A stretch of DNA of 63,055 nt, counting the filler, from Circinaria calcarea (taxonomy: Eukaryota), in NCBI GenBank assembly GCA_051942165.1. It is 2 parts of 2 records of this genome, joined end to end, with 100 filler letters (N's around TTAATTAATTAA, not from the genome) between each part and the next. Parts side by side here need not be neighbours in the genome. Positions count along the whole stretch, not along the records: positions 1 to 31,673 come from JAVECS010000040.1; 1 more part is not named here. One strand, written 5' to 3'. Both the position numbers and the translations under genes were made by a program. Positions 1 to 57,600 of this stretch are shown piece after piece; positions within the stretch are counted from its first letter, which is position 1; every line of letters starts with the position of its first letter. The notes beneath the pieces are model-generated. The model did no database searches. It was not told where the DNA came from and was given only the letters and a program-made list of their open reading frames with translations.

Positions 1-1171
1 CGACGAGTGCACCGCCCATGGCAGCGAATGGGATCAGGATCAGGACCGTAGGTAACAACTGAACACCAGAGCGTCCTGGACTCGAGCCGAGCACGCCTTG
101 AAAGTAAACGGGAAGGAAGTAGAGGACCCATATAGTGACAACGCTGTGGAGAAAGGTAAGGATGAAGGCTGTTAAGGATGTTCGATTCGAGAAGAGATGG
201 ATAGGCATGGTTGGCTCAACACAAAATCTAGATCCTTCATAGAAGAGAAAGCCAACAAGTCCAAGAAGACCCAGAATCAGCGGTAGGATGATCCGGAACG
301 ACGACCACGGATATACTGTGTTCGCCCACGATAAAGCAATCAAGATCGAAACGACGGATGCTACAAAGATGGCGTTCCCGACCCAGTCGATCCTCTTTAA
401 CGAGGTCGTCCATTTTGTCTGCTCCTTGTAGTTGACCTGCAGGAACAAGATCAAGAGGACCAGGGCGGCGCCTCCAACCGGCAAATTGATGTAGAAAACC
501 CAGCGCCAAGAAATGTCTTGAACGATCAGGCCACCAAACACCGGTCCCAGTGCAGTCCCAAGGGCGATCAAGCCAAAGATCAAAGCCAGGTAGTTCCCTC
601 GCTCTCTCAGGGGCACCAGATCACACACGACAATTTCGACCAGGACGTTAACACCACCAGCACCGATGCCCTGGATCGCTCGTCCAGCAATCAACATGTT
701 AATGTTACTGGCCCCGCCGCAGATGCCGCTGCCCAGAGTAAAGATGGCCGTGGCGACAATGATCGGATAGCGTCGTCCGAAAACATTGGCCAACTGTCCA
801 TAAAGAGGCTGAAAGGCAGTCCTGTTGCGATTCACTAATTAGTTTGACAGCTCGAAAAGGAAGGGGGATTGGATGTCTGACGTGGTCAGGAAGTAAACGT
901 TGATCACCCAGATATAGAGGTCTGCGCCACCGAGAGCGGCGATAATAGTCGGCAATGCAGTCGATGTGATGGTCGCCTCGAGAGCTGTCAGAAGGCCCGT
1001 CACGGCAAGGGCAAAGATGATGGCCCAGAAGCGTAGTCCTTTCTTCTTTGGGGGCTCTGCTACTTTGGTGTTGGTGTTGCTATCGGGAGATTCCTCGCTC
1101 TTATCTGCAATCGCTCGCGTATCTGCCTGGTCAGAGTACATAGGGCCTTGGTTATGGTCCAACGGGTCCAT
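1..1171 (-). CDS. MFS drug:H+ antiporter (DHA2/14-TMS type), 3' end outside window
   Basis: Starts MDPLDH..., then RFWAIIFALAVTGLLTALEATITSTALPTI...LYIWVINVYFLT. GT..AG intron at about 822-881. The frame continues with FQPLYGQLANVFGRR-type motif A and hydrophobic helices, open to the window edge. Confidence 0.9.
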
Positions 1172-1853: not shown

Positions 1854-3449
1854 CTAGGTCTGGTCTAGCATTTTTTTTAGTTTCCGGATTTCCTCTCTGA
1901 ACGCCTTGATGCCACCACCGTGGGTGCCCTGTTCATTCAGTTCCTCCTCCCTCATCACCAAATCCATCAACTTTGGCGTCACTACCTCGTTCACAAAGGC
2001 TTCCTCGTCCCTCTGACCACCGCTGATGCTGTAACCTTTCGGGTAGCCCATGGAGCTACCAATACGGTCAAGCATGCAAATCACAACCTGGATAAGAACC
2101 AGAATTTGGAGGTTGCCGTCTTGCTGGAGTGAGATTCCGCTGATCTGAAGATCAGACAGTGTTGCGAAGACGGCTTGGTGGTCGAGGGTGAGCAGACAGC
2201 GGCGGATGGTGGAGAAGACACTGCGGCACAGGCGCACTAGGTTGATGTAGCAGGTGATAACGAGGAGGCTTGTCGGAAGGTCGAGCTGATGCATCCGAGC
2301 CCGCCTGTCCTTACTCGGAGAGGGGGGACTGACGGCACTTGGTACAACTGAGTCGCCTGAGGTTGAGGTAGTATACGAACGGCTTCTGGCAGCTGATGAG
2401 AACAGCGAGTTGCAGCTCCCGCTCCCAGTTGACCCCGCCGAGTGACTAGCAGCTGAATGCCTGTGTTGCCTTGAAAGGTCTGCGAGAGCAAAGGCGGGCT
2501 CATGCGAGATTGACGCAGTGCGGAGAGCCTCACTAGCGTAATACCTGCTGTGGGAGCTTAGACAGTCCTGAAGCAAATTTTGGAATCTCTGCAAACCACG
2601 GATCATAACGGCAATAGGTAGCAGGGGCTCGTGTTCATTCCGAGTCGAGGAGTTGGAGAATCGGTCCAAACATGAGGCTGGATCCACTATTGTGCCGGTT
2701 AGTCTTAGCTGTCGATAGAGCTCCATATTAAGCTTCGACAACTGGTCCACATATACTTGATGTGTATCCAGTAGCTTGTGCAGATCCGTAGACTCTTTTT
2801 CGCTATTGGAATTGGTGCCCGTCGACAGAGAGCTATCTACGGTCTCTTCAGAGTTCAACTGGAATTCCTGTGTCGTCCCAGTTGAACCCAGAGAGGCATG
2901 CGGTGGATTACTGTACGAGAAACCGAGCAGAGTCTCATGAGAAACAAAGTCAGGATCGTCACCATAAGAAGCGGTAGATCCAAAAAAATCGGATTCATTT
3001 GGTTCGATGATGACGGAATCGTCAAGATTGAGGGTGCTATGATATAACCAACTCATGGAGTCTGCTCTTTCGGTAGCATTCGCTGCATCTGCATGCTCTA
3101 TCAGAGAAAGGTCATTGTCGACGCTGCTTGTCGGTTGCAGACGGGAAGGCTTCTCGATTGAATTGGAGCCGGTGGACAGAGGGCGTTCTCGCCGCCGCTT
3201 GGTCGACCTCCTGCCTTGCGGGGAGTTTTCGGCACCCACCGGCCTACCCATCCGCATCGTGGGACTAATAATGCAGACGGCGCTGGCTCGCTCGCAGCGA
3301 TTACATGATACCTGGCTGCTCTGGTTGCGGATGCATCGTAATTTCTGACCCCGGCACCGGTCGCAGGCTGAATGCTTGAGTGATTCTCCAACGGCGGCAT
3401 CGGCAGCATCAACATTGGAGCGCGGCGTGTTGGGCTGCGAGCTGGTCAT
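1854..3449 (-). CDS. Zn(II)2Cys6 cluster-specific transcription factor
   Basis: 531-aa ORF with CDRCRGQKLRC-x7-CNRCERASAVC binuclear cluster near the N-terminus and a Ser-rich middle region. Confidence 0.93.
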   Translation of the reverse strand: MTSSQPNTPRSNVDAADAAVGESLKHSACDRCRGQKLRCIRNQSSQVSCNRCERASAVCIISPTMRMGRPVGAENSPQGRRSTKRRRERPLSTGSNSIEKPSRLQPTSSVDNDLSLIEHADAANATERADSMSWLYHSTLNLDDSVIIEPNESDFFGSTASYGDDPDFVSHETLLGFSYSNPPHASLGSTGTTQEFQLNSEETVDSSLSTGTNSNSEKESTDLHKLLDTHQVYVDQLSKLNMELYRQLRLTGTIVDPASCLDRFSNSSTRNEHEPLLPIAVMIRGLQRFQNLLQDCLSSHSRYYASEALRTASISHEPAFALADLSRQHRHSAASHSAGSTGSGSCNSLFSSAARSRSYTTSTSGDSVVPSAVSPPSPSKDRRARMHQLDLPTSLLVITCYINLVRLCRSVFSTIRRCLLTLDHQAVFATLSDLQISGISLQQDGNLQILVLIQVVICMLDRIGSSMGYPKGYSISGGQRDEEAFVNEVVTPKLMDLVMREEELNEQGTHGGGIKAFREEIRKLKKMLDQT

Positions 3450-4124
3450 AGTGCAATCGCTAGGCTAAGATGTTGGCCAGGAGGAGAAGCTGTAGCATGT
3501 ATTCGGTTTTTACAGCTTGCATATATGACAGACCACGAGACTTAACACTCTTGTTACGGCTCTGCGTGGAAATAGCACGGAATATAGTTTATTACGTCGT
3601 ACGGAGTGACTACGCCGTGACAACAACATGGCAAAGGGAGGGTATCGATGTATCCCAACAATCGCATGTCCTCCTCTGCGATAGGTTCCGCCAAGACACG
3701 TGTGATGCTGCGGGGAATATACTATAGTAATAGCATTGGAGCGTCCACCATATTCCGCAGACATATACGCAGGGTCTTAAATCCCATGTGATGATCGACC
3801 GATCCAGGGCCCGTTACTGAGCCACTAATGTAGATCACCAATCTGTCATATCTCGAAGGGGCCGCGTACCGTAGCCGTCATTGGCCTCATAAAAGCCTCA
3901 CTTGCATAAAACCGTTCCACGTGCAGACGGACATGCAACGAATAATTCCCCGAATCTGCAAATCACGGCTAATCTTGATCATGCCGGCGAAATCCATTGC
4001 AGCCTTCAAGTACTGTGGTAGGAGTACGGAGTATGGCTTTTTCTAATATGCAGCCAAGTGCTGGTATATATTTTTATAAATATAATTGGATGCCAGGGAT
4101 ATACTTCCTCAATACTATTAGATT

Positions 4125-6644
4125 TTAATGACTGGCCGAGTCAGCTCCGTGCAAGGCCGAATCAACTCCGGGCGTCAAGTTATTGGTGAAAGCACAATCA
4201 CGAAGACGATAGACCAACTTTGATCCCCATACCTTACCTTTCCGGACCCGGTCTAGGCCATCAATCACGCCTGCGAATCCTCCAGGCCTTTCTTCATGTG
4301 GATGCGGGATGATTGCCCCGTCATCGATCAGCCCCTGTGCAACCTGGAACCAGCGCTCAGCAAATTCGCGGTCTTTAGGCTGCGGGTCCCTCTGGAACGG
4401 CTTCTGCCAGTTAATGGGCTTGTTAAACATCGTAAACATTATCATCCAATCCGGTTTAATGTCCCGACGGGTGTGAGCGCGAACGGGAAATGGATCAAGG
4501 GCCATGTATTGGCCGCCGTTTTTACCAATAGCTGTGTAACAGATCTTCATAGACTCGGTGTCACTAATGCAGTCGAGGGCGTATTCAAGCGAGTTCTTTG
4601 TGTACGCCAAGATGTCAGCTCCGCATGTGGCTAAGTGGTAATCAAACGCTCCGGCCGCCCCCAAGGATTTCACCAGACTAAAATTGCGGGGAGAGCACGT
4701 TGTGACCGGGACCATGCCAGATCTGCAAGTACATGTCAGCGTTACATTCCAATATAAGATGAGTGCCATGTCGAGCATGTCCCTCAGCCTTGGGTTCACC
4801 TTACAGGCGGATTGTCTGTATCGCGAGGGTCCCGGTAGCAGTGCCTCCTCCGTAAACCAAGACAAAGCGTGGCTCACTTGCTGGCATGCGTGCTGGCGAA
4901 CGAGGAAGCGGTAGCCTTAGACCATGATACAGCGCCATCCCTACTGTCGCCATGCCGAGCGCCAGCGTTGCTGCTGTTTGAAAAGACATATCGGGTGGGA
5001 GTTTGAAAACCAAGTCTCCCGGAACCGCGACAAACTCGGCGAAAGCTCCATTGTCACGCTCGTTTGGGTTGTTTCCGAAAACGCAGCCGCATACACGATC
5101 ACCAATCGACAGACTTTTCTTCACAGCGCGACCGATTGTGACCACCTCTCCAGAAAAGTCACATCCCGAAGTTGCTCCTAGGCTGGGAGATAAGTCCGAC
5201 GACTTACTATCGTATGGGTTAAGTGCAACACAGCAAACTCGCACAAGAACTTCATCGTCTTGAGTCCGAGGAATTGGCAAAGAGCCAGCTAGGCCCATTT
5301 TCCCTGGTCCTCGTATCTTGAGCCCTTTCTGTGTGGTTGGCACCGACGAGATGTTGATGGGCAGGTCTCCATTCTTTCCCACTTTTTGTGTGCTGAGCTC
5401 TTCTTGTCTGGTTGGCGCAGAAGGCACATTGCAGGAGAGTTCCGAGTTGAACATATAAACCAACTTTTCGCCCGAGACTTCTCGGCGCCGCATCCTATCC
5501 ACTCCCGAAATCACAAACTCGAGTCCACCGTCTTTGACATTCGGCGGATGAGCCTTGATTTTCCCTGCACTTGCCAGTACCTCAAAACGCTTGAACCACT
5601 CGCAACCGAATTCTCGTAGCTCTGGATTAGGTTTGCTGCCATACCCTCCACCCAAAGCGATCTCGGAGCCTGACATGGTAATTCCTAATACCCAGGTAGC
5701 CTTGACCGTCTTCCGCATACCGGCAATCAAGTCATCCGGGATGAGCTCAAACCCGACGTAACGACCGCCAGCACGACCGATGGCTGCGAAACATAGCCTC
5801 AGTGTTTTTGCTTCCGTAATGATATCTATGACATACTGCAAGGTATTTTTGGTGTAGGCGCGTATGTCTTCTGCGCAAGTCGGTGAGTGGTAGTCGAAAG
5901 CCCTCTCCGCGCCATAAGACTCGACCAGCTGGAAATGTCTTGGGGAGCAGGTAGTAACGACCTTGAACCCTGACCTACGAGGGGCGTTATTTGATGGCAA
6001 AGTGCACCGCAGCATTCAAGTATAGATGTGAATTGCGAACAACTTGAATTACGAGTCACTTACAATGTCAGTAACTGTACGGCCATCGTCCCGCTCGCAG
6101 TACTACCGCCATAGACAAGGACATAGGTAGGCTTCTGCACCGGCTGCTCTGGAGTTCCCGGCAGCGCCAGGGAGCGGAACATGGCCAGTCCAAGTGTTCC
6201 AACCACGCACCACCCTATGGCCGCTGCCTGCTCCCATGGCATGCCGTCGGGCACTCTCCAGAGCTGGTCTGCAAACACGGCTATATAGTCGGCGAAAGCT
6301 CCGGAGCGCGGATTGAGAGAATTCGAGGCATGCACGGCGCCTGCGACTCGGTCGCCTATTTGGAGATCGGATGCTACTGCGGAGCCTAGGGCAATTACGG
6401 TGCCGGCGTAGTCGGAACCATCTACCGCACCCGGACACGGAAAATTCATCGGCATCTTCCAGTCACATGGATTCAGAGCGACAGCAACCGTCTGGACGAG
6501 TACCTGACCGGGCAATAAATCTGGGAGGGGACAATCGGCACACAGGATCAGCGAGCCTACCGGTTCCTTCGCCTGTACAATCGCTTTCTGGGAAGCCGGA
6601 AGTGGCCGTGAGGTTAGCGTCCTCGCCATGAAGCGTCTCGACAT
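4125..6644 (-). CDS. Tandem double trans-acting enoyl reductase (two LovC-like MDR domains in one predicted 782-aa polypeptide)
   Basis: Exons 6644-6064, 5974-4805 and 4722-4125, with GT..AG introns at 5975-6063 and 4723-4804. Domain 1: VALNPCDWK...VLVYGGSTASGTMAVQLL|SGFKVVTTCS...SGEKLVY. Domain 2: VALNPYDSK...VLVYGGGTATGTLAIQTIRL|SGMVPVTTCS...GSKLVY. There is no stop between the domains. Confidence 0.85.
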
Positions 6645-6998
6645 GGGATCCTCTTGGGGGTATCAATGGGTCTGGTCTTCCCATCAATTGGAGCCCACGT
6701 AACGTTTATCATCTCTCATTATGGTGCTCTGCCGAGTGGACCCATCGGAGTCCGAACGAGACAACGATTATCTTCGGAGCGCAATGCATAAAGTCCTCCG
6801 AAATAATTGATCGGAAAATCCAAATCATGGGCTTGGGGTTTAGTGGCCGATGTTCGGTTTTCCATGTGGAACATTCGGGGACTTCTGCTCCACAATGCAC
6901 TGAACATATTCGATCCAGCATCGCTATTCTCACTGTCCGCACAAGTTTTTTATCGAATCACTGTTGCTTGGTGGTAGCTGACAAGTCCACGGGAGTGA

Positions 6999-8291
6999 AT
7001 GATGCCCCAAACATTGTCCCTTGTTGTCATCCCACTCATCCTACTTCGTGTTGTCTCAGCACAACAAGTATGGCAACAACCCCTTACGGAGTCATTCGCG
7101 GGGAACTGGGAATATACGTGGGACGAGTCTTGCACCACAAGTCGCATTACTGCCTTCGAGCAAGCTGACGGTCCAGTCAACTTCTCCACGTCCGCGTCTG
7201 ACTATCTGGAGCACCCTAAAATTTCTGCAGTTAATGCCACAGCATGGGAACAATGGGAGTTTGATAGTGTATCTGACTCCGGTCTTGGGGGTATCATGGT
7301 GGGCTTCTCAAGAGACGCGTCCTATGCTTTTTTCGGTCAGGGCAATCTCCGTATCGAATTCTACGTCGTCCTGAGTGACGGTTCGGTGATCCAAGAGCTA
7401 GAATACGTCAGCGAATCCACCCTTGTGGATTGTGGGAACTTTGTAACGGGCACATGGAATAGCACCAGACGTACCTACTCCTTCCAAGTATCCAAGGATA
7501 TGAAGCATGCCAGGTTATACTTTGATTCTCCACGTGTGCAAGGGAGCTTCACCTTAACATCCGTCGCACCGCCACACTTCCCAAATGGCGATCTTTTCCC
7601 CTCGGATAAGGCATCAGCGACGGAATTAGCACCCTGGTTATACATGAATCAGCCTATCCCTGGTGGCCGCGTGGATGCTGATATCACCTTCTCGAAGAAG
7701 CGCGTTCGATTCTCAGGGATGGGGGGACATGTCAGGCTATGGGCTAAGGACAGTTGGTTCAACATCTGTGACGGATGGCATTTTATGCGCGCCATGGCGG
7801 GGCCATACACCATCTCCTACTGGCAGCCCATATCGCGCAAAGATAAAGGCGTCTCATACTACTCTGCTCAGCTTTTCAAGGATGGAAAGAGATTGCTCAC
7901 AACACAGCTCGGGAATGTGTCTGAAACAGACGACTATGTCCTCTTCACCGATGAACTCGACGGCGAACTTCGAGGCTCGCTGGCAGATCACTCGACAGGC
8001 CATGTTCTCGAGTTTGTGGCCCCTGGAAGAGGGAAGAGATGGCATTTCCTCGTTCAACACATGAAGAAGCAGTTTGAAATGGGCCTCGGCGGCGACTCTG
8101 GCTTAACCGGGTTCACGAACCGCGTTACAGGCGGCATGGTAGGCGGGACGCAGTATGAGGGACGCGCGTTGTCTGAGCAAGTTGTTTTGCCAAAGACAAT
8201 CGCGCAATGGCGGATCTGGATTGTCCTCGGGATCGGCTTTTTGAATCGGGGAAAAAGTTTTGTGATGAACCTCGTGGGATACATCTTCTAA
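6999..8291 (+). CDS. Putative pericyclase/Diels-Alderase of the Fsa2/CcsF/PoxQ-like beta-barrel family
   Basis: Intronless 430-aa ORF with NATAWEQWEFDSVS, FSRD, G-x-GGH-x-R-x-W and W-x-F-x-R-A-x-AGPY motifs recognisable from this family. It is transcribed divergently from the trans-ER and has a hydrophobic N-terminus and C-terminal segment. Confidence 0.75.
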   Translation: MMPQTLSLVVIPLILLRVVSAQQVWQQPLTESFAGNWEYTWDESCTTSRITAFEQADGPVNFSTSASDYLEHPKISAVNATAWEQWEFDSVSDSGLGGIMVGFSRDASYAFFGQGNLRIEFYVVLSDGSVIQELEYVSESTLVDCGNFVTGTWNSTRRTYSFQVSKDMKHARLYFDSPRVQGSFTLTSVAPPHFPNGDLFPSDKASATELAPWLYMNQPIPGGRVDADITFSKKRVRFSGMGGHVRLWAKDSWFNICDGWHFMRAMAGPYTISYWQPISRKDKGVSYYSAQLFKDGKRLLTTQLGNVSETDDYVLFTDELDGELRGSLADHSTGHVLEFVAPGRGKRWHFLVQHMKKQFEMGLGGDSGLTGFTNRVTGGMVGGTQYEGRALSEQVVLPKTIAQWRIWIVLGIGFLNRGKSFVMNLVGYIF

Positions 8292-9660: not shown

Positions 9661-10657
9661 TCACACAGTTCCATGCGACGTGCAGTCATCATGAACAAAT
9701 GGCTCCTCACCTCTTTCTATCCGCCACCGATTCGTCGCCTCTAACGCCCCCGGTAACCCTTTAAACAACCACCCCCATTTCCTCAGAAACCCTTCCGACA
9801 TCTCCCACCCCGTGATGTCCCAGGGTGGCGACCACGCAATAATGCCGCGTCGCTCGATCTCGTCGTCGGGAAAGCCCTCGTACAGCCCGCCGATGCAGTC
9901 GGCCCACAGCTCGTCCTCGTCGAAGGTGCCGGCGGCCCGGATCAGGCGGTCTCGTCCCTCGGGATACGGGAACAGGTCGATCCAGTCGCCGTGCGGCACC
10001 GTTTGTTGAAGGGCGGTGGGCAGGAGTGTTGAAGGGAGTAGTTCGGGCTTGGTAGGGTAGGGGATGACGTGGATAACTTCCTCATCACAGTCGAGCGGCG
10101 TGACGAGGATGCCCGAGATTAGAGTGCGGTTCACGGCCAGGGCGCGGAGGGCGTTGAATTGGAGGAGTGTAATGAGGTGGTCTGAACAGAGGGGGAAGAC
10201 AATATTAAACTGCTCTTTTCTAGATTTATCTGGCAGCAAGGGGTTTCTCGCATTGTATAGTTGCTTGATACGGGATACTGGGAAGATGGAGACGGATTGC
10301 TGCTTAATGTCCCAGCATTCCACCAGCGCTTCTGATTTGATCAGTATCCCGGTTGCAGCACTGGATGCTTCGGCTTTCTTTGCTAGGGCTTTGCGTTTTC
10401 CTACTGGACTGTTAATTTCGATAATTGGGTACCCCTTGATCGGACTGGTCCTGACTCCTGATTTGGACGAAAGAGAAAACAAGGCCTTACTTACGGTATG
10501 CCCTTGTATTGAGTCTGGTCTGTGCCCGTCTACGTGCTGCGGCATCCTTGGTCCCAGTCCAGTCGTCTTCCCTGCTTATCGCCTGTACGCGGTGAGCAAG
10601 TCATGTCGTCTTGGCGATTGAAGGCGGCCTGATACGTACCTCGGCCAATTGTGGCAT
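9661..10657 (-). CDS. bZIP-like basic-region protein with C-terminal DUF3425 domain
   Basis: Spliced model: MPQLAE|intron|AISREDDWTGTKDAAARRRAQTRLNTRAY|intron|RKRKAL..., followed by DHLITLLQFNALRA, LLPTALQQTVPHGDWIDLFP and WSPPWDITGWEMSEGFLRKWGWL, all typical of DUF3425. Confidence 0.82.
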
Positions 10658-11419: not shown

Positions 11420-12455
11420 ATGACTTTCCATCCCGACACTCTCCCCGATCTCAAAGGCAAAGTATTTATAGTCACAGGTGGGAATTCCGGCATGTAAGTC
11501 TTCCCTCTTCCCTCTTCCCTCTCCCCTCTCCCCTCTCACCACGAAGCCCGAATCGCTGATGTCACCAAACCACAGAGGCTACTACACCGTAGCCCACCTA
11601 GCAGAACACGGTGCCCACGTTTACATGTGCGCCCGATCCTCAGAGAAGGGCACAGCAGCCATCGCCAACATCAAGAAAATGCACCCCTCAGCCAACATCG
11701 ACCTCCTGCAAATGGATCTTATGGACCTCACCAGCGTCGTCGCGGCCGCCAAGCACTTCCTCACCCTCGAAACAGCTTTGCACGGCCTGGTCAACAACGC
11801 AGGCATCATGGCGACGCCCTTCGAAATGACCAAAGATGGCCACGAGGCCCAGTGGCAGACCAACTACCTCGCGCACTGGGTTTTGACGGAGCACCTGCTT
11901 CCTCTGATGCTGCGGACCGCCAAGACGCTTCCTCCCGGCAGCGTGCGCATCGTCAACCTCACTTCATCGGGCCACTTGGGCGCACCCAAGGGCGGTATTA
12001 ATTTCAAGGACCTATCGCTCAAATATAGCGGCCCATGGCCGCGTTACGGACAGAGCAAGCTCGCCAATATTCTGCACACCAAGACCCTGCACAAGATGTA
12101 CGGGCCCGGCTCTCCCAGTGCGCGGAACGGGGAGAGCGAAATCTGGGTTTCGTCCGTGCATCCGGGTCTGGTTGAGACGAACCTTGCCACGTCGGTGGGG
12201 GAGTCGGGATCGGGCATGATGAGTGTTTTCTCGGTCTTACGCATGTTTGGATTGATATGGCCTGCCGATAAGGGATCATGGACCAGTTTATTGTGTGCGG
12301 CGAGTCGGGATATGAAGGCGGAGCAGAGCGGCACGTATATCGAAAATTTCCGGCGGTTTGGGGAGCCGAGGTGGCAGAGCGGTGCGGCGAAGGATAGGAA
12401 GCTTGCAGAGAGGTTAGAGGAGTGGACTAGGGAGGTGATAAGGAAGCAAGGATGA
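11420..12455 (+). CDS. Short-chain dehydrogenase/reductase (retinol dehydrogenase/WWOX-like)
   Basis: Exon 1 reads MTFHPDTLPDLKGKVFIVTGGNSGI, followed by a CT-rich GT..AG intron. Exon 2 carries NNAGIM, the YGQSK catalytic motif and HPGLVETNL. Confidence 0.92.
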
Positions 12456-16232: not shown

Positions 16233-17526
16233 CTAGTACCCTTTCTTCCGATCCACCACATTGATCAGCTCCTTGCCCTTCTCCCTCTTCACCAGATTCA
16301 CCTCCAGCACCTGGAACGCCCTGTCCACATACAAGACCCCCAAACCACTGATGTGCGGCGTGACGATGCAATTGGGTACATCCCACAACGGACTATCCCG
16401 AGGGAGCGGCTCCGGATCCGTCACGTCCAGCGCCGCGCCTCTCAATCCCCCCTCCTGCTCCGGATCTGCTCCTTTCTTCAACGCGGCGATCAGGTCATCT
16501 TGCTGGAGGATCTGGCCGCGGGAGATGTTGGAGATGAAGGCTTTTTGGCGTCCCAGGATGTCGAACTCTTCTTTGCCGAGGAGATGCGTGGTTTCTTTGG
16601 TCAGCGGGACAGAAACGAGGAGATGGTCGATGTCTTGCGAGAGGAAATGATGGAGGGAGGCTTTATCCGTTCCGCTGAACCAGGCGCTGGGGATCGAGCC
16701 ATCCGCGTCCCCAGTACCGGGGACGATGAAGCCATGATCTTTCTTGCTCTCGGGCGTGGGGCGGGGAGAAGCGGTGTAGGCAATGACATCCGAACCCATG
16801 GCCTTGAAAACTCTCCCAGCCTGCCTTCCGATACTCCCGTACCCGAGGACGCCGAAGCGCTGACCGACGTTATCGCGGATCGTGCGCAGGCGACCCTGTT
16901 GGCCCGTTTGATCCCAGTTGTGCGTCTTTTGCAAGTCGTGTAGCTCGTGGTACCGGTGCGAATGGACGAGGGCTGTCATGAGAACCCATTCCGAGATCTG
17001 AGGGCCGTGGATGCCGGACGAAGTCGTCAGGGTGATATTGGTATCCGTGTAGATGGGGTGGTTGGCGATATGGTTTGTGCCGGCCGAGAGGAAGTGGATC
17101 AGTTCTGTTGGAGGTCGGGGAGAGCGTTAGTCGGCTGCAGGGCAGAAAGTGGGGGATGCGCGGGGAGAGGAGGAATCCCCACCCAGATTGGGGCAGTCTG
17201 ACGGAGAGTGAGGAAGGGCGGCGAGGGTGACTAGAATAGTGGCATCCTTCCAAGTGTCTGTGTAGAGAAGACCAAAGTATCAGCCAATATCTGGCGTGCC
17301 CAGTTTCTCCCTCATGGGGGGGACCAGCAGCCGGATGCCCAGTCCAGAATGCCCTACCGTCGGGAATACCCTGATCCCGTGCAAAGGGGTCTGCAGTCGT
17401 CAAGTTCCTATAGGTGACTTTGATGTTCGGGTGACTGTTCTTGATCCGCTCGATAATAGCCTTTGGTTCGGGGAAGGGCAGGGTGATGAGAAGGTGCTCC
17501 GGTTTGGTGTTGGGTCCACCTCCCAT
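16233..17526 (-). CDS. D-isomer-specific 2-hydroxyacid dehydrogenase
   Basis: Starts MGGGPNTKPEHLLITLP, has two introns, and carries GVLGYGSIG (NAD binding), NISRG, AALDVTDPEPLP and TPHISG motifs. Confidence 0.92.
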
Positions 17527-18394
17527 GGTGAAAGGTGCAAGCTAGCAGTTCCAAGGTATCTAACTGTCTAATTGAGCACCGGCAAACTCAAAGATACGAT
17601 AGTCATCAATGCTAGCTACTGACTAAGTTCTGGGGAACACACAACCCTTATATAGCAGTGCTGTTGGCTACGTTGCTTATCAAACCAACCAGCTATCAAT
17701 CCTATCCCCTATCCAATCCTACGAAACGTCATCGGGTCGAGTAAGCAGACGCGGTAGAGGCAGCAATCTGATCATATTTGGTCCGGATTAGTAATATACA
17801 ATCCTCCATCCGATGCCGTACTTAGCCGAGGACATGATAACAACCCTTCGATGCCCGATATCTGTTCGCATCCAGAAATATTCAAGGTGGGTGATGGTTG
17901 CATTCGGGCAGCGTAAACATGTACAATGGTAGTATATGGCGTGCAGAATGTAGGATATGGATTCAAGGTAGTCATGCGTGGTGGTGGCACCAGGATTATC
18001 AAGCCCAGCAACTAACCTCCAAACGTGGCAATGTAGAACAGTGCCATCGTTGTAATCGAGGTTCTATCGTATCTACACAGACTATCACCAACATCTGCAC
18101 TGTACACCCAAGACCCAGCCAAGCACCACCCGCTCTCAAGTCAGTGAGGGAGGACCGTACAGTCATTATCCCGCTAGAAACATCCCTTGCCATACTTATT
18201 GCCCCCACCTTATCCAGCGCAATGATGCAGTGGTTGCCCCATGAACTCCAAATAATACACAACGCAAGATGCCAGTACTGTAAGCCTGCTCTATGCTTGG
18301 TTGGATTGCCCGTCCAACCACATGCGCATGCTCCCAAGTAAAAAATCAGGGTATCCTGCAAAACACCGTCGTTGTCGAACTCTATCATCATACT

Positions 18395-21300
18395 TCATTC
18401 TGTCGATGATTCAGTCGAACTGCGAAGCGTTACCGTCCTCTGACTCATATCACTTTCGTTTCTGTTCAGGATCCCCTTTCCACGTTTCGGTTTGGAACTC
18501 GACCTGCCTGTAGTCGGACTTCCGAAATTTTCTACCGTACCGGAAAAGCTGCTGTCTCTGGGACCGACTGCCATACTCGAGTCGGAATGCGGACGTGGAG
18601 CCGCATGTGTCATACTCCCTTGCGAAGGTGGACTTTCCACATTCCTCAGTCTGTCGAACTTTTCAATGTTCGCCTCCGTCAGAGCGGCTGCTGGAAGCAT
18701 GGGCCGTGGCGGAGCACCTTGGAAGGAGGCCTGAGGGCTGCTTCGGCGATCGGCCGATTGTGATTCACTGGCGGTAATAAAGAGTTTTTCATCACGTAGC
18801 GAGGTGGCCTTCTCTTCCGCTTCCGCTCGTCGCATTCCCCTATCTCCTTCCGACTCGGGCCCAGGTAAACGACTTCTGTCGGCAATCTCTCGAGCACGAA
18901 TGTTGCTTTCTGCCGTCTGGAATGTTTTAAGTGGTGTCTCCGGTGCATGGGAGCAAGCAGATAAATCATCCTTTTCAAGACATGCTGAGCCATGCGTAGA
19001 TGATCGCGACGTGCGGATATCGTTTCTGTCAGGATTGCGTCTAATTTCCAGCGCCCATTTGACAAGCATCTTTTCCAATGTCTTGGCTTTCACCGGCTTG
19101 GCAAGATAATCATCCATTCCAGCTCGCTGACACTTTTCTCTATCGCCCTGGATTGCAGAGGCGGTCATCGCTACTATCGGAACGGCATGCATCCCTGGCA
19201 AGGAAGAATATGGATCATGATGCCGAATGAGATGCGTCGCACGGTATCCATCGAGAATAGGCATTTGAACGTCCATGAGTATAACATCCGGTTTAGGATG
19301 ATCCGTGGTAGAATCTGCAAGCAGGTAATCGAGAGCTTCCTGGCCGTTCCACACAGCATTGACGGAGAAACCTAGCTTCTTGATTGTCTTGGTCGCAATC
19401 TGCTGATTAATAGGGCTAAATGACAGTCAGATACAAACACGCTAGGGCACTGAACGAGGGTTACGTTACTTGTCCTCGACTACTAAAACGTTCACCGCTT
19501 TGCGGTCAGCCTCCGCTAGGTACCCTCCTTGATCAGCTGCAGGAGCGGTAACCGAAGTTCTAGGTGACCGTGAGTCGGAAGGGTTCTGGCGATGAAGAGT
19601 GAAAGGGCTTGGAGTGTTGCGAGGACTCTGTGGTGGTGTACTACGACGCTCATAGTCCGACGCGCACCCGGAGACTGACAGCTCCGATTGTAACCTATCC
19701 GGGATAGACGCGAGATCGACGGGATGGGCTGAGCCACTCTGAAACTGGGGCTTACTAAAAGGAATTGAGAATGTGGCTTTGGTACCGGTCCCGAGCGTGG
19801 ATTCAAGAGTGATCTCGCCATGCATCAGATCAACCAGCTGTGTCTTGTAAGTATGGTATTGATAGTTATAAGCAGCTCGGTGTATATACGTACATTCTTG
19901 CAGATGGTGAGACCCAACCCTGTGCCACCAAACCGCCGAGCAGTGCTTGAGTCTGCCTGGCTGAACGGTTTGAAGAGTCTTTTTCGTACGTCCTCTTCAA
20001 TACCAATGCCAGTGTCTTCGATCGAAAAGAGTACCTCTATCGAATCTAACGTTTCGTGTTTTGCTTTCACGGCTAGCTTTACATACCCCTCGGAAGTAAA
20101 TTTTATACTGTTAGTTAGTAGATTAGTAAGGATTTGACGAACTCTGCAAACAGAAGTATTTACGTTAGTAGAGTGAATTTCGTTTTTGGTTAGGTGACTG
20201 CATGCTCACCTTCCTGGATCGCCAACGACGATAAGATCGTTATCGACACCAACCTGAATATCACTGTCGAATACCAGGTTCTTCCGTTCCGCTGCATAGG
20301 CTAGCATTTTGCTAACATCACGTATAACAACAGATAGACTGAACTGGACTTCTTCAATGTCCAAATGACCCGATTCGACTTTGGAAAGGTCCAAAATATC
20401 ATTGATTACCGTCAAAAGGCCATTAGCGGACCGCTGGATATTCTCGGCACATTCTCGCTGTTCGGGATCCAGATTTGTATCGATCAAGAGCTCCGACATT
20501 CCAATGACTCCGGCGATAGGTGTTCGAATTTCGTGCGACATATTCGCCAAGAACTGGGACTTCAGCCGACTTGCCTCCTTAGCTGCATTCTCTGCGGAGA
20601 GTAACCTGAGGTTCTCTTTTTCTTGGGACTGCAACTCCGCCTCTCGATCCTTGGACTCTGTCACATCCATACTAACACCAATCACGCCGTCAACCTGACC
20701 GTCGTTAAATGTGGGAACAAAGCGAGTGCGAAACCATCGCCCGTTACCATCGACGTGATGCTCGGAAATCTGTTCCTTTTGTTCTCCACCAAGGATCTCT
20801 TCGATCGGTTTCTTGTAAAGAGGTAGATCAATCTGACCTTGGTATCGCCCAAACACATCATAGATATTTCTTCCTATAGACTCGGATGTGATATCGTTCT
20901 CACTCGCATCCCACATAAGTCTGCCTTCGAGGAATGTTAGATTACGATTACGATCGACTGTCCATACGGTGACTTCGGCGTGCTTGATGACGTTGAGTAG
21001 CTGTTCGCGCGTATTCTTTGCCGTCTGTCGAGCTTCAACCAAGTCATGGATGTCGGTGATAGATCCAAACCACTTTACGATTTTTCCCGTTTTGTGGTCT
21101 CGTAATGGGAGGGCACGCCCTAGCATCCATCGCCAGGCGCCGTCATTCCTCCTGCAGCGATACTCAACCGAAAATTCGTTCCCAGTTTCCACGCAGTGAG
21201 ACCATCTGCTGACTGTTTCGGGTGTGTCATCTGGATGGAAGTGGTTCATCCATCCTTCCCCGAGAGTATCTTCGACCGTCACTCCTGTATACTCGTACCA

Positions 21301-23073
21301 CTGTTGGGAGAACCAGTCTAGAATAATTTAGCGTTTGGGACTTCGAGTTTATGAGTTGAAAGCCCACTCACCGCACAAGCCAGTGGGGCCTGTCGTCCAT
21401 AACTTTGGGAGAGAAGTTAGCGTCGACAAGAGATAATATAGTGGACCCGCCTACCATCTGGGGCATTGTGTGGCAGATCATCTCAAATTGCCTTTCGTTT
21501 TCCTCTGATTGTGTTTTGATTATCTCTGTATACTCCGTGACGTCCTTCAAGGCTACCATCCCCGCCAAGAACTCCCCCGTCTTCTCATCATAGATCCCTT
21601 CTCCACAGAGATCATATCTAAGGCGCTTTTCATCGGCGTCTATAAGTCCGATTCTCCATTTGTCAAATGGTTTCCGGGTACGACACAGCTGGACAATGGG
21701 GAACTCATCGATTTCCAGTGCTCGTTCGAAGTCTTCGGTGTAGACCTTGAAACGGGAGAGGAGATCGTAGACATCATCGGACTTTGAGCCGGTGGCCCGC
21801 TGCATAAGTCGCTTGATTGCTTTGTTGTAATAAGCCAGACTCTCGTCCTCCCACATGGCGAAGGCAGGTAATTCCATTCCATTAATAATTGCATCCTTCA
21901 TCATGAGGGTCTTCTGTAACACAGATGGTGATGTCGTGAGGTTTGTACGGCTTGGCGCTCCGAGCAGAGGGAATGACGAAGGGGAAAGGGACCCATTCGC
22001 AGACGGGAGATGAACGGAAGACGTGGAACCGTCAATCGAGAGTTGATCAGTGCCGTTTGAAGACGACGAGGCAGAGATGATTGACGGCCTTAGCGATGCT
22101 TGCGTTAGACTGCGGTCGAAGCTACTTGGTTGTGAATGCGATGTTTGTGCAGGACTATAAGACGCACTGGTAAAGGATAGGGTATAAAATCTTAGCTTTT
22201 CCATGGTCCAGATTGAGATAATCATCTTTGCTTGTATTGGAGTATCGGATTGTAACGACTTGAAGCTCCTCCCAGAAGCAGCACTTGATCCTTGGGTAAA
22301 TTGAGAATTGATCATAACCTCCACCACTACATCATATAACAAACCTTGGCGGCGAGCCTTGCGGGAAGCATGATTTGAGTTCGGAGAAGTCCCAATTGGC
22401 ATGTTGGACTCCAGACTCGTCGCTGATGATTTAGGCCCTTCACCTTGTTTGCCGAGAGATTTCCCAGCTGTCATGTCTCGATCCAGTTCGTCGGCTAAAC
22501 CATCAAAGAACTTCTGTATTAGAAGATCAGCGGGAGTAACCGTTGCCTCGACTATAATTCTCCCTGCCTTACCTCCCAGCTCACCCAAATAGGCTGACCG
22601 CCCTGCAGCATGTCGATACCGATCTGCGAAAGCGTTCGACCCTGCAGTGTATCCTGTGCTGTCACGCCTTCGCCTTCGGTATTTCCGTTGCCGTCTCCCT
22701 CTTTCCCTTGTGTGTAACCTTCTAATCCCAAGAATCTACCCATTGCTTCGTTCGCAATGATGACGGTTTTTAAGTTCGATAGGACCAGTAAAGGCGTGGG
22801 TAGGTACTGCAGAGCTGCCAAGGCCGTTTCTGCCGCACTTGGGATCTCGGGCATGCTGACGGAGGTTTGAGGACTGGTCCGGTTGGACCTTGGCACTTGC
22901 TCATCTTTCTTCTGTGTTCCGAAGTAGCTTTCGGGGTGGAATTCTTCTTGTTGAAATCCATTTGTTAATGAGGCCGACAGAGATTGCTTGAGGGTTGCAT
23001 AATTGTCCAAATCGCTTGGAGCTGGATTGGCCGGACTAAGGCCGTTGTACGACGGTTGTAACGGTTTTGACAT
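18395..23073 (-). CDS. PAS-domain hybrid histidine kinase (PAS/PAC-HisKA-HATPase-receiver)
   Basis: Multi-exon gene. PAS/PAC: HPDD...EYRCRRNDGAWRW. H-box: FLANMSHEIRTP. G boxes: EDTGIG and FGGTGLGL. Receiver: VLVVED, ILMDVQMP and MDDYLAKP. Confidence 0.93.
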
Positions 23074-23672
23074 AATCAACCACGAACTTTTCTACCTGTC
23101 CGATTTGGTCAATGGCGCGCCCCTCATTGGGAATCCGATCGGAGCTGTAGTGACAGTGGTTAACGACCGACTACATGTAGGTAAGAGAAGCGTCAATAGA
23201 AATGTCCATTAAGCTGTAGAGAGAAGTCGATGGTGGGCTTCCTATGAAGACCTCAACGTCCAAAAACGAAGCCGGGGTCATATAATGAAAAGTCGCCGTT
23301 CTAGACCCGGCCTTCCCATTTGCAGACCAAATCTCGGTCGCTTCGCTGGGAGCGGGGTGTGGCGCCGATCCCGAGGCTAATCAGCCACAAGGGCGGCTTT
23401 TAGTTTAGCCTTCACAACAGTTAAACGCCATTGAAGGGGACCTCATGCTTGAAGGGTCATCACCAACTTCTGTAAATTGGTCATTGAAGGCATGTCCCTT
23501 GCACAACGATGCCCTTTCCCTCACTGGTCTCGTTTCACTCGAATATAAAAAAACTAGCCTTTAAAGACGGTGATGATTGTGCACGCGCGCAGTTGGAGGG
23601 AGATTTATCATAGATTGAAAGTGCTAAAGCTCTCGGCTATCTTCCCTATAGCCACGATTTGTGCCGTGAAGC

Positions 23673-26600: not shown

Positions 26601-27231
26601 AATTAGAACCATCCCTCCTCCTTCGACTGTCTCAATGGTCCTGGCAAGGATATTGGGCGTAATTGCCTCAAAGTCCTGCAGTATACACATGCCAAAAGTA
26701 TTCCCTAAGATCTTGTCTGTTTCTTTGTAGTATATATAGCGGATATTATGCAACGTCACGAACAATTCAAAAGGATCTTCTGTATTCGGCTCCCGCTTGC
26801 CTTGCTTTATCTCATTTTTTATTTTATTCTCTCGTTTCTTCCGATGACTGCAAGGCTCTACCTGTCAATCCAGTCCAGCTTATCTCAACGAGGGAGGCCT
26901 CACCTAGTAAACCCCAGAAGATCTTTTTTGTATGCCCATAGTACCGATTTATTCTGTTTTATATCGACGCTTGACATGATGTAGTGCAGGTTGACGATGA
27001 CATCCTTGGCTCGATCACCGACCACCACGATAAAGCTTCGTTTCTTCTCCTGGTTGATTGTGTTAGAAAGTGCTAGCTAGCAGAGATGCGCAGCTTCCAC
27101 ATATCCGCACCTGCACTCCATTGCGGATCAGAGCCGGTATTCTCGAGTCCCTTCATGACGTTAGACCTGGGATTCTATACTCTCTAAATACCGGAGCCTC
27201 AAGAATCAGCATACACAGCTTTTCGAGGCAT
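23673..27231 (-). CDS. KRE33: RNA cytidine acetyltransferase (18S rRNA/tRNA ac4C)
   Basis: N-terminus MPRKA|..DSRIPALIRNG; LQDFEAITPNILARTIETVEGGG; Walker A TAARGRGKSAALG; DEAAAIP; STINGYEGTGRSL; SHYKNSPNDLQ; basic C-terminal tail. This is the NAT10/Kre33 ortholog. Confidence 0.96.
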
Positions 27232-56091: not shown

Positions 56092-56323
56092 AATAGCGGA
56101 AAGATATTCCAATGGAGCGGTTGTGGCACGTGATACCGATCAAAGCAATGACCTCATTTCCATCCAACCGCCTTATGATCTCTGAGATCGCGGTAGGAGA
56201 CGATTGCTCTGGACGAGGCAAAGTATCTACCATATTGTTATAATGCGAAGTAGATTGCACATCTATCTATCTCGTGTCGATACTATGTCCCGTTCCGCCA
56301 AGTCCATAGGTTATGTTGCCATC

Positions 56324-57288: not shown

Positions 57289-57600
57289 CTTGCTATATTA
57301 AAAGGAGGGAAGGAGATACTGGCCCAATCCGCACGACCGTCTAATACTAAATATGTAGCCCTCCTTCCCGATGGCAGCCTGACTCAAGGGACAATACGGG
57401 GTTCTACACTGCAGAAGATAAGCTACATGCGTCATAATTAATTGTGGGTCCAAGCAGTCATAACGACGGAATTTCGAGGCAATCTCTTATGGTCTCCCAA
57501 ACATATATATAATGTACTTGTCTCCCATGTTGTCCTACCGATTCTGCTTATCGAAACATACCTCAATTATATCTACTCTTCGTTGAAGCTGATCTAAATA

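What the first reader, a model, noticed from the sequence alone, without database searches (positions are those of the whole stretch)
4125..6644. Two complete trans-enoyl reductase domains fused in one open reading frame
Seen: after domain 1 ends (SGEKLVYMF) the frame stays open through a roughly 35-aa low-structure linker into a second full MDR domain. The linker has no stop and no Met positioned to start domain 2. Both halves carry a phase-2 intron at the homologous position (…L|SG…) and keep the NPxDxK lysine, yet they are clearly diverged. Known: LovC/EqxC-type trans-ERs are normally single-domain proteins of about 350-370 aa. Inference: a di-domain trans-ER formed by fusion of paralogs. 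It might serve two synthases, act at different elongation cycles, or use one domain as a post-assembly reductase.
Basis: partly seen in the sequence, partly recalled or inferred. Interest (0 to 1): 0.82.

Follow-up and report, generated by a model that had tools for sequence, protein, structure and literature searches.

The report
Two enoyl reductases fused in one gene
A lichen-fungus gene next to a Diels-Alderase gene encodes two complete, apparently working polyketide enoyl reductases joined by a floppy linker; the fusion recurs in a dozen other fungal sequences but we found no description of it in print.

Summary
A minus-strand gene runs from 6644 to 4125. It has three exons and two phase-2 GT..AG introns at the homologous L|SG site. 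It encodes 782 aa, or 777 aa (83.5 kDa) from the second ATG.

The protein holds two full LovC-type MDR enoyl reductase domains joined by a roughly 34-aa linker with no stop. This is not an artefact. Four full-length gene models, from three lichen fungi and Talaromyces atroroseus, show the same open junction. So do nine uninterrupted ORF fragments from other assemblies (13 of 13).

The halves are 40% identical and lie on opposite sides of the deepest split of a 67-row trans-ER tree:
- D1 groups with MycC/CcsC/XenG-type reductases and is up to 73% identical to free-standing ones.
- D2 groups with ApdC/LepG-type reductases and is up to 68% identical to free-standing ones.

Both keep the LovC K54 lysine, the glycine-rich NADPH motif and nearly all family-conserved columns (79 of 80 and 104 of 109). 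AlphaFold folds both domains well. The linker comes out disordered, and pTM is 0.56.

The T. atroroseus copy lies two locus tags from talA, the PKS-NRPS for talaroconvolutin A and ZG-1494alpha. No partner synthase lies in the window.

Verdict: a real, conserved new architectural variant of a known enzyme kind. We found no description of it in print. How the two domains share the work is inferred, not shown.

The parts
4125..6644 (-). Whole di-domain enoyl reductase gene (three exons, two introns, stop TAA at 4125-4127). Encodes 782 aa, or 777 aa from the second ATG at 6629.
   Evidence: The spliced translation equals public model P0001.
6064..6644 (-). Exon 1: N-terminal (GroES-like plus start of Rossmann) half of domain 1
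   Evidence: Pfam ADH_N, 2.1e-12; sequence
5975..6063 (-). Intron 1 (89 nt, GTAAGT..TAG, phase 2, splits L|SG)
   Evidence: If the intron is retained, a stop follows at codon 194.
4805..5974 (-). Exon 2: C-half of domain 1, linker and N-half of domain 2 in one uninterrupted frame of 390 codons
   Evidence: ADH_zinc_N at residues 2-101, ADH_N at 239-326
4723..4804 (-). Intron 2 (82 nt, GTAAGG..CAG, phase 2, splits L|SG at the column homologous to intron 1)
4125..4722 (-). Exon 3: C-half of domain 2, a disordered 21-aa tail, and the stop codon
   Evidence: pLDDT below 50 for residues 757-777
5446..6644 (-). Domain 1 (P0001 residues 1-365, includes intron 1): MycC/CcsC/XenG-clade trans-ER
   Evidence: LovC match 9.9e-77. 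Up to 73% identical to free-standing ERs. Tree. Keeps 79 of 80 family-conserved columns.
5344..5445 (-). Linker (P0001 366-399, 34 aa, S/E/L/N/P-rich): no stop, variable in sequence and length among homologs
   Evidence: pLDDT below 50 for residues 369-396
4191..5343 (-). Domain 2 (P0001 about 400-756, includes intron 2): ApdC/LepG-clade trans-ER
   Evidence: LovC match 7e-82. Up to 68% identical to free-standing ERs. Tree. Keeps 104 of 109 conserved columns.
6456..6458 (-). Codon of K58 (NPCDWK), aligned with LovC K54
   Evidence: Invariant in 36 of 36 rows of A4.
5203..5205 (-). Codon of K446 (NPYDSK), aligned with LovC K54
   Evidence: K in 3B6Z versus S in 3GQV at this column; 3GQV title reads K54S. 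Invariant in A5.
6087..6119 (-). Glycine-rich NADPH-binding motif of domain 1 (LVYGGSTASGT)
   Evidence: Aligned to the same motif of LovC; sequence
4828..4860 (-). Glycine-rich NADPH-binding motif of domain 2 (LVYGGGTATGT)
   Evidence: Aligned to the same motif of LovC; sequence
6645..6998 (.). 354-bp head-to-head intergenic region shared with the Diels-Alderase gene. A shared divergent promoter is inferred, not shown.
   Evidence: Free-standing domain-1-type ERs in L001 and L002 show the same head-to-head ER/Diels-Alderase layout.
6999..8291 (+). Neighbour: Fsa2/CghA/Phm7-family Diels-Alderase (decalin synthase), 430 aa
   Evidence: Pfam DA_N 2e-28 and DA_C 3.5e-42. PDB matches: Fsa2 1e-22, CghA 1.6e-18.
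1854..3464 (-). Neighbour: open frame with a weak Zn(2)Cys(6) match. Cluster regulator role is inferred.
   Evidence: Pfam Zn_clus E=7e-4, below the curated cut-off
2..838 (-). Neighbour: MFS/TRI12-type transporter, cut by the window start
   Evidence: Pfam MFS_1 5.5e-27 and TRI12 7e-17

Best explanation
This is one real gene. It encodes two complete, catalytically competent trans-acting enoyl reductases of the LovC type on a single 83.5-kDa chain, joined by a flexible linker of about 34 aa.

It arose by adding an ApdC/LepG-clade reductase (domain 2) to the 3' end of a resident MycC/CcsC-clade reductase gene (domain 1). Domain 1 still sits head-to-head with the cluster's Diels-Alderase gene.

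Inferred mechanism: like LovC on LovB, the protein docks on the acyltransferase side of a PKS-NRPS whose own ER is inactive. That places two NADPH-dependent ER active sites with different substrate preferences within reach of the carrier protein. The enoyl reductions of different chain-extension cycles would then be divided between the two domains at a fixed 1:1 ratio. The product would be a decalin pyrrolinone or tetramate of the talaroconvolutin/myceliothermophin kind.

Shown: the gene structure, the two intact domains, conservation of the fusion, and the different clade origins.
Inferred: docking on a synthase, division of labour, and product class.

My confidence is about 0.85 in the architecture and about 0.4 in on-line division of labour. 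The single figure given, 0.5, is for the statement as a whole.
For: - Gene model and open junction.
- Identity with public model P0001.
- The fusion is conserved. Three other full-length models cover 100% of exon 2 at 60-66% identity. Nine uninterrupted junction-spanning ORFs come from other assemblies. The junction is open in 13 of 13, with variable linkers.
- Both halves are full LovC homologs: searches (7e-82; 9.9e-77), and Foldseek TM 0.92-0.94 to LovC.
- The K54-equivalent lysine and the NADPH motif are present in both halves.
- Columns conserved at 90% or more in 32 free-standing relatives are kept at 79 of 80 (D1) and 104 of 109 (D2), so neither domain shows decay.
- Different origins: D1 versus D2 is 40% identical. 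D1 is up to 73% identical to free-standing ERs, with mycC at 63-64%, xenG at 59% and ccsC at 58%. D2 is up to 68% identical, with rows named lepG at 67% and 53% and rows named apdC at 56% and 51%. The tree splits the two groups at 100% SH-aLRT.
- A single origin of the fusion is not rejected: AU p=0.093 for D1 and 0.41 for D2.
- Flexible tether: pLDDT is below 50 for residues 369-396 and pTM is 0.56.
- Pathway context: a Diels-Alderase sits head-to-head. L001 and L002 show the same ER/Diels-Alderase layout followed by an HR-PKS.
- The T. atroroseus homolog UA08_04449 lies two locus tags from talA, UA08_04451. Deleting talA abolishes talaroconvolutin A and ZG-1494alpha (PMC5215926, passages read).
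- LovC docks on the LovB MAT domain through a loop, and that docking is needed for product formation (PMC7870829, section 8 read).
Against: - There is no transcript or protein evidence. No sequencing run was listed for this stretch.
- All four full-length sequences are automated gene models.
- No PKS or PKS-NRPS lies next to the gene in the window. Nothing synthase-like lies between 8.3 and 16 kb. The window's left edge cuts the MFS gene. The only PKS in the window (44.5-53 kb) has its own ER domain and lies beyond housekeeping genes.
- The T. atroroseus model lacks 21 aa that include the NADPH motif of domain 1. This may be a mis-called intron, but it could be real.
- Monophyly of the fused D1 domains is only weakly tolerated (p=0.093; the T. 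atroroseus D1 groups with mycC-type singles). Independent fusions or later fissions cannot be excluded.
- No known pathway I could find needs two trans-ERs. MycC-type enzymes alone suffice for related products (recalled, not tested).
- Nothing here shows that the two domains differ in substrate preference.
Confidence: 0.5

Rival explanations
1. Domain 1 is the only on-line trans-ER of the synthase. Domain 2 is a tailoring ene-reductase that acts on a released intermediate (post-assembly reduction) and is fused only for co-expression.
For: D1 keeps the ancestral head-to-head position with the Diels-Alderase seen for free-standing D1-type ERs. D2 comes from a different clade. The flexible linker and low pTM suggest independent domains.
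Against: The named relatives of D2 (ApdC, LepG, DmbC, LovC-like; names, roles recalled) are on-line trans-ERs, not tailoring enzymes. D2 keeps 104 of 109 columns conserved in those relatives. It also keeps a basic T-R-R loop at the position of the LovC MAT-docking loop T271-M274.
Confidence: 0.2
2. The two domains serve two different synthases, for example a PKS-NRPS and a second ER-less PKS in or near the cluster.
For: The two halves belong to clades that partner different families of PKS-NRPS (names; tree).
Against: No second synthase is visible near the gene. The only PKS in the window has its own ER domain and lies 38 kb away, beyond a histidine kinase and NAT10. None of the 21 related metagenome loci holds two ER genes. 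The region left of the window could not be seen.
Confidence: 0.12
3. One of the domains is a non-catalytic scaffold or docking module (a pseudo-enzyme), as with the inactive ER of LovB itself.
For: The T. atroroseus model lacks the NADPH motif of D1. The inactive ER of LovB plays a structural role (PMC7870829, passages read).
Against: In the window protein and both other lichen models, both domains keep the lysine, the NADPH motif and 95-99% of family-conserved columns. The T. atroroseus gap ends exactly at the conserved intron site, so it looks like an annotation error.
Confidence: 0.1
4. The two halves are made or matured as separate proteins, through an internal transcription start, internal initiation at M415, or cleavage in the linker. 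On this reading the fusion is only a genomic arrangement.
For: The linker is disordered and could be open to proteases. M415 exists in 9 of 13 sequences.
Against: There is no stop in 13 of 13 junctions. M415 is I or V in 4 of 13 and lies inside the first beta-hairpin of D2. Free-standing D2-type proteins start about 6-8 residues before the conserved TQ..LKI strand. An open frame would not need to be kept if the halves were expressed separately.
Confidence: 0.06
5. The fusion is an assembly or sequencing artefact of this metagenome-assembled genome, such as a lost stop or a frameshift.
For: The record is a MAG (name). One open 34-codon linker is not rare by chance (23% of shuffles).
Against: The same architecture occurs in 12 other sequences from independent sources at 54-66% identity.
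Confidence: 0.02

Closest known systems
LovC (Aspergillus terreus lovastatin trans-acting enoyl reductase; PDB 3B6Z, 3B70, 3GQV, 7CPY)
   Same: Both halves align with LovC over its full length (7e-82 and 9.9e-77). Both have the same fold (TM 0.92-0.94), the K54-equivalent lysine and the GGxTAxxT NADPH motif. In both halves the loop matching the LovC MAT-docking loop is basic.
   Different: LovC is a free-standing protein of about 363 aa with one domain. This protein has two such domains on one chain. Identity to LovC is only about 39-40%. The context here is a Diels-Alderase cluster, not a statin cluster.
MycC / CcsC / XenG / PydC-type trans-ERs of PKS-NRPS pathways (myceliothermophin, cytochalasin, xenoacremone, pyrrocidine)
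   Same: Domain 1 falls inside this clade. It is 63-64% identical to proteins named mycC, 59% to xenG, 58% to a ccsC-named protein and 52% to pydC. Free-standing members sit head-to-head with a Diels-Alderase next to the synthase, as domain 1 does here.
   Different: Those enzymes are single-domain. Here a second ER follows in the same frame.
ApdC / LepG / DmbC-type trans-ERs of 2-pyridone and tetramate PKS-NRPS pathways
   Same: Domain 2 falls inside this clade. It is 67% identical to a Lasiodiplodia protein named lepG and 56% and 51% to apdC-named proteins, including A. nidulans AN8409. It is 49% identical to DmbC.
   Different: Those enzymes are single-domain and start with their own Met. 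Domain 2 has no conserved start and is preceded by a linker and domain 1.
Talaromyces atroroseus UA08_04449 (uncharacterised; two locus tags from talA, the talaroconvolutin A / ZG-1494alpha PKS-NRPS)
   Same: It has the same di-domain architecture and 60% identity over exon 2. It lies near a PKS-NRPS with a known product (PMC5215926).
   Different: The deposited model lacks 21 aa of domain 1, including the NADPH motif. The paper neither mentions nor tests this gene: the term 'enoyl' occurs 0 times in its main text.
ER domains of thraustochytrid PUFA synthases, reported to form a heterodimer
   Same: This is another system in which two distinct ER units work together in one synthase (PMC13311796; title and start of abstract seen in search listings only).
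   Different: It is a different system (PUFA synthases). The paper itself was not read, so no closer comparison is made. It is an analogy only.

Membership tests
LovC-type fungal trans-acting enoyl reductase (MDR superfamily) | MDR fold: GroES-like domain plus Rossmann domain | tested here: met
   Pfam ADH_N and ADH_zinc_N are found in each half, though the ADH_zinc_N matches fall below Pfam's curated cut-off. The AlphaFold model has mean pLDDT 87.8. The top Foldseek matches are LovC, TM 0.92-0.94.
LovC-type fungal trans-acting enoyl reductase (MDR superfamily) | Full-length sequence homology to LovC | tested here: met
   D2 7e-82, residues 401-753 against LovC 9-361. D1 9.9e-77, residues 30-362 against LovC 28-358.
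LovC-type fungal trans-acting enoyl reductase (MDR superfamily) | Active-site lysine equivalent to LovC K54 | tested here: met
   K58 and K446 align with the residue that is K in 3B6Z and S in 3GQV, the 'K54S' entry. It is invariant in A4 and A5.
LovC-type fungal trans-acting enoyl reductase (MDR superfamily) | Glycine-rich NADPH-binding motif | tested here: met
   LVYGGSTASGT (D1) and LVYGGGTATGT (D2) align with LVYGGSTATAT of LovC.
LovC-type fungal trans-acting enoyl reductase (MDR superfamily) | Free-standing single-domain protein of about 350-380 aa | tested here: not met
   The protein is 777-782 aa with two domains. Relatives have a median of 366 aa, though those searches were limited to 426 aa or less. 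In the search with no length limit, 3 of the 150 best representatives span the junction. The other 147 match a single ER unit or part of one, and two of those are longer proteins of 958 and 626 aa. This is the feature that makes the protein a variant.
LovC-type fungal trans-acting enoyl reductase (MDR superfamily) | Encoded beside an HR-PKS or PKS-NRPS whose own ER is inactive | tested here: inconclusive
   No synthase lies next to the gene in the window. The window's left edge is cut and no genome is held. The T. atroroseus homolog lies two locus tags from talA.
LovC-type fungal trans-acting enoyl reductase (MDR superfamily) | NADPH-dependent reduction of ACP-bound enoyl intermediates, and docking on the synthase | not testable with these tools
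   This needs biochemistry. The complex predictor was not available.
Fsa2/MycB-type decalin-forming PKS-NRPS cluster | Diels-Alderase, trans-ER and PKS-NRPS clustered together | tested here: inconclusive
   The Diels-Alderase and the ER are present head-to-head. The PKS-NRPS is not in the window.

The most novel reading that the evidence does not exclude
The fusion hard-wires two trans-ERs of different ancestry onto one PKS-NRPS, so that the enoyl-reduction programme is split between two active sites. Each domain would reduce the chain only at its own set of elongation cycles. That would make the programming of an iterative fungal PKS genetically separable, one lysine at a time, in a tractable producer (T. 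atroroseus).
Probability: 0.35. Interest if true: 0.75.

Novelty: new variant of a known kind. Interest (0 to 1): 0.58.

Why it matters
How iterative fungal polyketide synthases decide at which cycles to reduce the enoyl bond is a long-standing question. The trans-acting ER is one of the gatekeepers.

A natural protein that carries two different, intact trans-ERs suggests that some pathways use two ER specificities. It offers a clean test: knock out each lysine separately, or express each half alone.

The test could be run in an organism with CRISPR tools and a known product, T. atroroseus making talaroconvolutin A and ZG-1494alpha.

The finding also flags these 730-780-aa models as genuine rather than merged gene calls. 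The sequences are in public databases as 'hypothetical protein', and my literature searches found no description of the architecture.

Tried and rejected
- **Sequencing runs:** none was listed for window 4000-6800, RNA or DNA, so no reads were laid.
- **Whole genome:** none is held for this window, so the partner synthase could not be sought.
- **Domain-domain binding:** Complex prediction, intended to test whether the two domains bind each other, was not available.
- **Metagenome scan with the exon-2 alignment:** it returned 21 loci. I first read L001 and L002 as fused because the match covered query residues 1-389. Translation showed free-standing D1-type genes ending in a stop after KLVYLINPK. 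All 21 loci hold one ER copy and none holds a tandem pair. So no DNA of a fused homolog and no unfused tandem 'pre-fusion' state was found.
- **Joint alignment A3:** it placed the D1-type singles on the D2 half. I used separate alignments A4 and A5 for column counts. A3 was still used for the fold, so D1 had shallow alignment depth there.
- **ESM Atlas:** it shows only single-domain clusters among its large clusters. That says nothing about small families.
- **Earlier findings of this scan:** nothing by place, by sequence or by words.
- **LovC crystal-structure paper (Ames 2012):** it is not held. That LovC is monomeric is recalled, not read.
- **Literature searches:**
  - No paper describing a fungal di-domain, tandem or fused trans-ER turned up.
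  - The 'ER didomain' hits had titles on bacterial or modular PKS; I saw titles and abstract starts only.
  - Searches on talaroconvolutin, ZG-1494 and gene clusters found no characterisation of the cluster beyond talA.
  - Subscription journals are not covered.
- **Recent tandem duplication:** considered and rejected. The halves are 40% identical, against 68-73% to free-standing enzymes.
Full report
**Observation**

The feature is a minus-strand gene.
- Exon 1 runs 6644..6064.
- An 89-nt intron runs 6063..5975 (GTAAGT..TAG).
- Exon 2 runs 5974..4805.
- An 82-nt intron runs 4804..4723 (GTAAGG..CAG, with a GCTGAC branch-like site).
- Exon 3 runs 4722..4128 and is followed by TAA at 4127-4125.

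Both introns are phase 2 and cut between L and SG at homologous columns of the two halves. A script that joined the exons gave a 2349-nt frame with one terminal stop (782 aa). From the second ATG (6629) this is identical to a public gene model, P0001. P0001 is 777 aa and 83.5 kDa, and is named as a hypothetical protein of a Circinaria calcarea metagenome-assembled genome.

Pfam finds ADH_N plus ADH_zinc_N twice. Exon 2 is one uninterrupted 390-codon frame. It holds the C-half of domain 1, a 34-aa linker (window 5445..5344) and the N-half of domain 2.

**Is it more than chance or artefact?**

A single open linker is weak evidence: 23% of base shuffles of the 102-nt linker stay open. The comparative evidence decides the matter.
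- A search among long proteins returned 13 hits. Four of them, including the window's own protein, cover 100% of exon 2. They come from Letrouitia sp. (750 aa, 66%), Flavoplaca austrocitrina (748 aa, 60%) and Talaromyces atroroseus UA08_04449 (729 aa, 60%).
- The other nine hits cover 42-49%. They are single ER units joined to other domains such as P450, FAD-binding, Zn-cluster or NRPS-like parts.
- A search of 1.84 billion representatives with no length limit listed 150 best hits. Three of them (P0014, P0015, P0024) run co-linearly through the junction. The rest match a single ER unit, in two permuted stretches or as a partial half; nearly all are 180-470 aa.
- Six more junction-spanning ORFs appeared in the domain-wise searches: P0229, P0233, P0236, P0249, P0259 and P0267.

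When the 13 sequences are aligned, all 13 have an open junction. The linker is 30-50 aa, rich in S, T, P, N and G, and differs in sequence and length. Only one pair of sequences reaches 85% identity. The nine fragments carry no source name and each is one unbroken reading frame, so the junction is open in their DNA without any splice being assumed.

**What the two halves are**

Each half matches LovC over its whole length. D2 scores 7e-82 and D1 scores 9.9e-77. The AlphaFold model's best structural matches are the three LovC entries, with TM 0.92-0.94 and rmsd 2.1-2.2 Å.

K58 and K446 sit at the column where LovC has K54. The mutant entry 3GQV ('K54S') has S there. Both halves carry the glycine-rich NADPH motif aligned with LovC's.

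I compared each half with 32 free-standing relatives. The window protein keeps 79 of 80 columns (D1) and 104 of 109 columns (D2) that are at least 90% conserved in those relatives. The other fused proteins keep 73-78 of 80 and 95-99 of 109. Neither half looks like a decaying pseudo-enzyme.

**Origin**

D1 and D2 are 40% identical over 356 residues. Each is much closer to free-standing enzymes.
- D1 is 73% identical to an Emydomyces protein and 69% to a Coccidioides protein. It is 63-64% identical to proteins named mycC, 59% to xenG, 58% to a ccsC-named protein and 52% to pydC.
- D2 is 68% identical to a Neofusicoccum protein and 67% to a Lasiodiplodia protein named lepG. It is 56% and 51% identical to apdC-named proteins and 49% to DmbC.

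In a 67-row maximum-likelihood tree, the deepest split has 100% SH-aLRT support. It puts all four D2s with the ApdC/LepG/DmbC group (29 rows). It puts all four D1s with the MycC/CcsC/XenG/PydC/PhmE/PyiC/CheB group (38 rows). So this is a fusion of anciently diverged paralogs, not a recent tandem duplication.

In the free tree the fused domains are interleaved with free-standing ones. The T. atroroseus D1 sits with mycC-type proteins. AU tests do not reject one clade for the fused D1s (p=0.093, delta lnL 24.8) or the fused D2s (p=0.41, delta lnL 2.5). One fusion event is therefore compatible with the data but not demonstrated.

The L|SG intron is an old family feature. It is present in a free-standing D1-type gene (L001). 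It is left unspliced in a free-standing D2-type model (P0314). In 12 of 21 metagenome loci the match splits into two pieces near that site, as an intron there would cause.

**Context**

The gene sits head-to-head with an Fsa2/CghA/Phm7-family Diels-Alderase, separated by a 354-bp intergenic region. Downstream of the ER gene lie an open frame with a weak, sub-threshold Zn(2)Cys(6) match and an MFS transporter that the window edge cuts.

Two metagenome contigs, L001 and L002, carry a free-standing D1-type ER at 53-55% identity. They show the same head-to-head ER/Diels-Alderase pair, followed directly by a highly reducing PKS. This suggests that D1 is the resident cluster ER and that D2 was appended at its 3' end.

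In the window no synthase follows the Diels-Alderase. Nothing PKS-like lies between 8.3 and 16 kb. From about 16 kb on the genes look like housekeeping genes: a 2-hydroxyacid dehydrogenase, a histidine kinase and NAT10. If a partner synthase exists, it lies left of the window, which I could not see.

The T. atroroseus homolog UA08_04449 is two locus tags from UA08_04451 (talA). That is a PKS-NRPS whose deletion abolished talaroconvolutin A and ZG-1494alpha (PMC5215926, passages read). These are decalin pyrrolinones with an extended polyketide chain (PMC9055775, passages read). That paper does not mention the reductase.

**How it probably works**

AlphaFold folds both domains with confidence (mean pLDDT 87.8). 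It leaves residues 369-396 and 757-777 below pLDDT 50, and pTM is only 0.56. The picture is two independent domains on a flexible tether, not a rigid pseudo-dimer. The alignment depth for D1 was shallow, so this is weak evidence.

LovC docks on the MAT domain of LovB through the loop T271-M274, and that docking is required for product formation. The LovB-LovC complex is about 294 Å wide, with one LovC on each side (PMC7870829, section 8 and passages read). Both halves here have a basic loop at the aligned position.

A 34-residue tether is too short to bridge the two sides of such a dimer. This is my inference from those dimensions. The likeliest picture is one domain docked and the other held near the same reaction chamber. 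The carrier protein would then have two ER active sites of different ancestry, and presumably different substrate preference, at a fixed 1:1 ratio.

I put about 0.85 on the architecture being real and expressed as one protein. I put about 0.4 on on-line division of labour. The rivals are:
- D2 as a post-assembly reductase (0.2).
- Two different synthases (0.12).
- One domain as a scaffold (0.1).
- Separate expression or cleavage (0.06).
- Artefact (0.02).

**Comparison with what is known, and novelty**

By fold, full-length homology, catalytic lysine and cofactor motif, each half is a member of the LovC-type trans-ER family. The one family trait not met is being a free-standing single-domain protein. 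Association with an ER-less synthase is inconclusive for this window.

Three full-text searches for di-domain, tandem, fused or second trans-ERs found no fungal case. Searches on the talaroconvolutin cluster found nothing beyond talA. Subscription journals are not covered by these searches.

The sequences themselves are already public as hypothetical proteins. I therefore rate this a new variant of a known kind. It is of moderate to good interest because it is conserved and apparently unreported. It is also directly testable in T. atroroseus, a CRISPR-tractable producer.

**Limits**

There is no RNA or protein evidence. No DNA of any fused homolog was seen. The partner synthase was not seen. 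That LovC is monomeric, and the roles of MycC, ApdC and LepG as on-line trans-ERs, are recalled rather than read here. The clade labels rest on names that sources gave to database entries.

Noticed in passing
window 44566-53040 (-) and 54850-63054 (+): There is a second, unrelated biosynthetic cluster. It holds a highly reducing PKS with its own ER (KS, AT, DH, C-methyltransferase, ER, KR and ACP pieces). It also holds two MmgE/PrpD-family genes, a citrate synthase and an FSH1 serine hydrolase. This gene set is typical of alkylcitrate or maleidride-type pathways; that product guess is recalled, not tested.
   Followed up: partly
window 16236-26864: The genes here look like housekeeping genes and probably mark the right border of the ER/Diels-Alderase cluster. 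They are a D-2-hydroxyacid dehydrogenase, a hybrid histidine kinase (PAS, HisKA and response-regulator pieces, 18398-22735) and a NAT10/TmcA-type RNA cytidine acetyltransferase (24030-26864).
   Followed up: partly
P0004 (T. atroroseus UA08_04449), alignment A1 columns 170-190: The deposited model lacks 21 aa of domain 1, including the NADPH-binding motif. The gap ends exactly at the conserved L|SG intron site, so it is probably a mis-called splice donor. I could not check it without the DNA.
   Followed up: partly
L001 6711-9665 and L002 8195-11157: These metagenome contigs show the canonical layout. A free-standing D1-type ER sits head-to-head with a Diels-Alderase, which is followed by an HR-PKS (KS-AT-DH-CMeT...). 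The ER gene has an intron at the same L|SG site.
   Followed up: yes
proteins P0005-P0012: Other long models join a single trans-ER unit to a P450, an FAD-binding domain, a Zn-cluster domain or NRPS-like parts. They could be merged gene calls or further real fusions. I did not examine them.
   Followed up: no
P0314 (Letrouitia sp., free-standing D2-type ER): This gene model appears to read through an unspliced intron at the L|SG site: an odd 30-aa insert sits before SGLKPIATCSP. The same lichen genome also encodes a fused di-ER (P0002).
   Followed up: partly
window 9664-10575 (-), 11472-12452 (+), 37456-38841 (+): A DUF3425 protein and a short-chain dehydrogenase lie just right of the Diels-Alderase and could belong to the cluster. 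A P450 split over two frames lies at 37.5-38.8 kb.
   Followed up: no
linker columns of the 13 fused sequences: Several linkers share a loose NG-x-NG..KP element. P0015 carries a repeated NGV(A/T)KTNG insert. The meaning of this is unknown.
   Followed up: no
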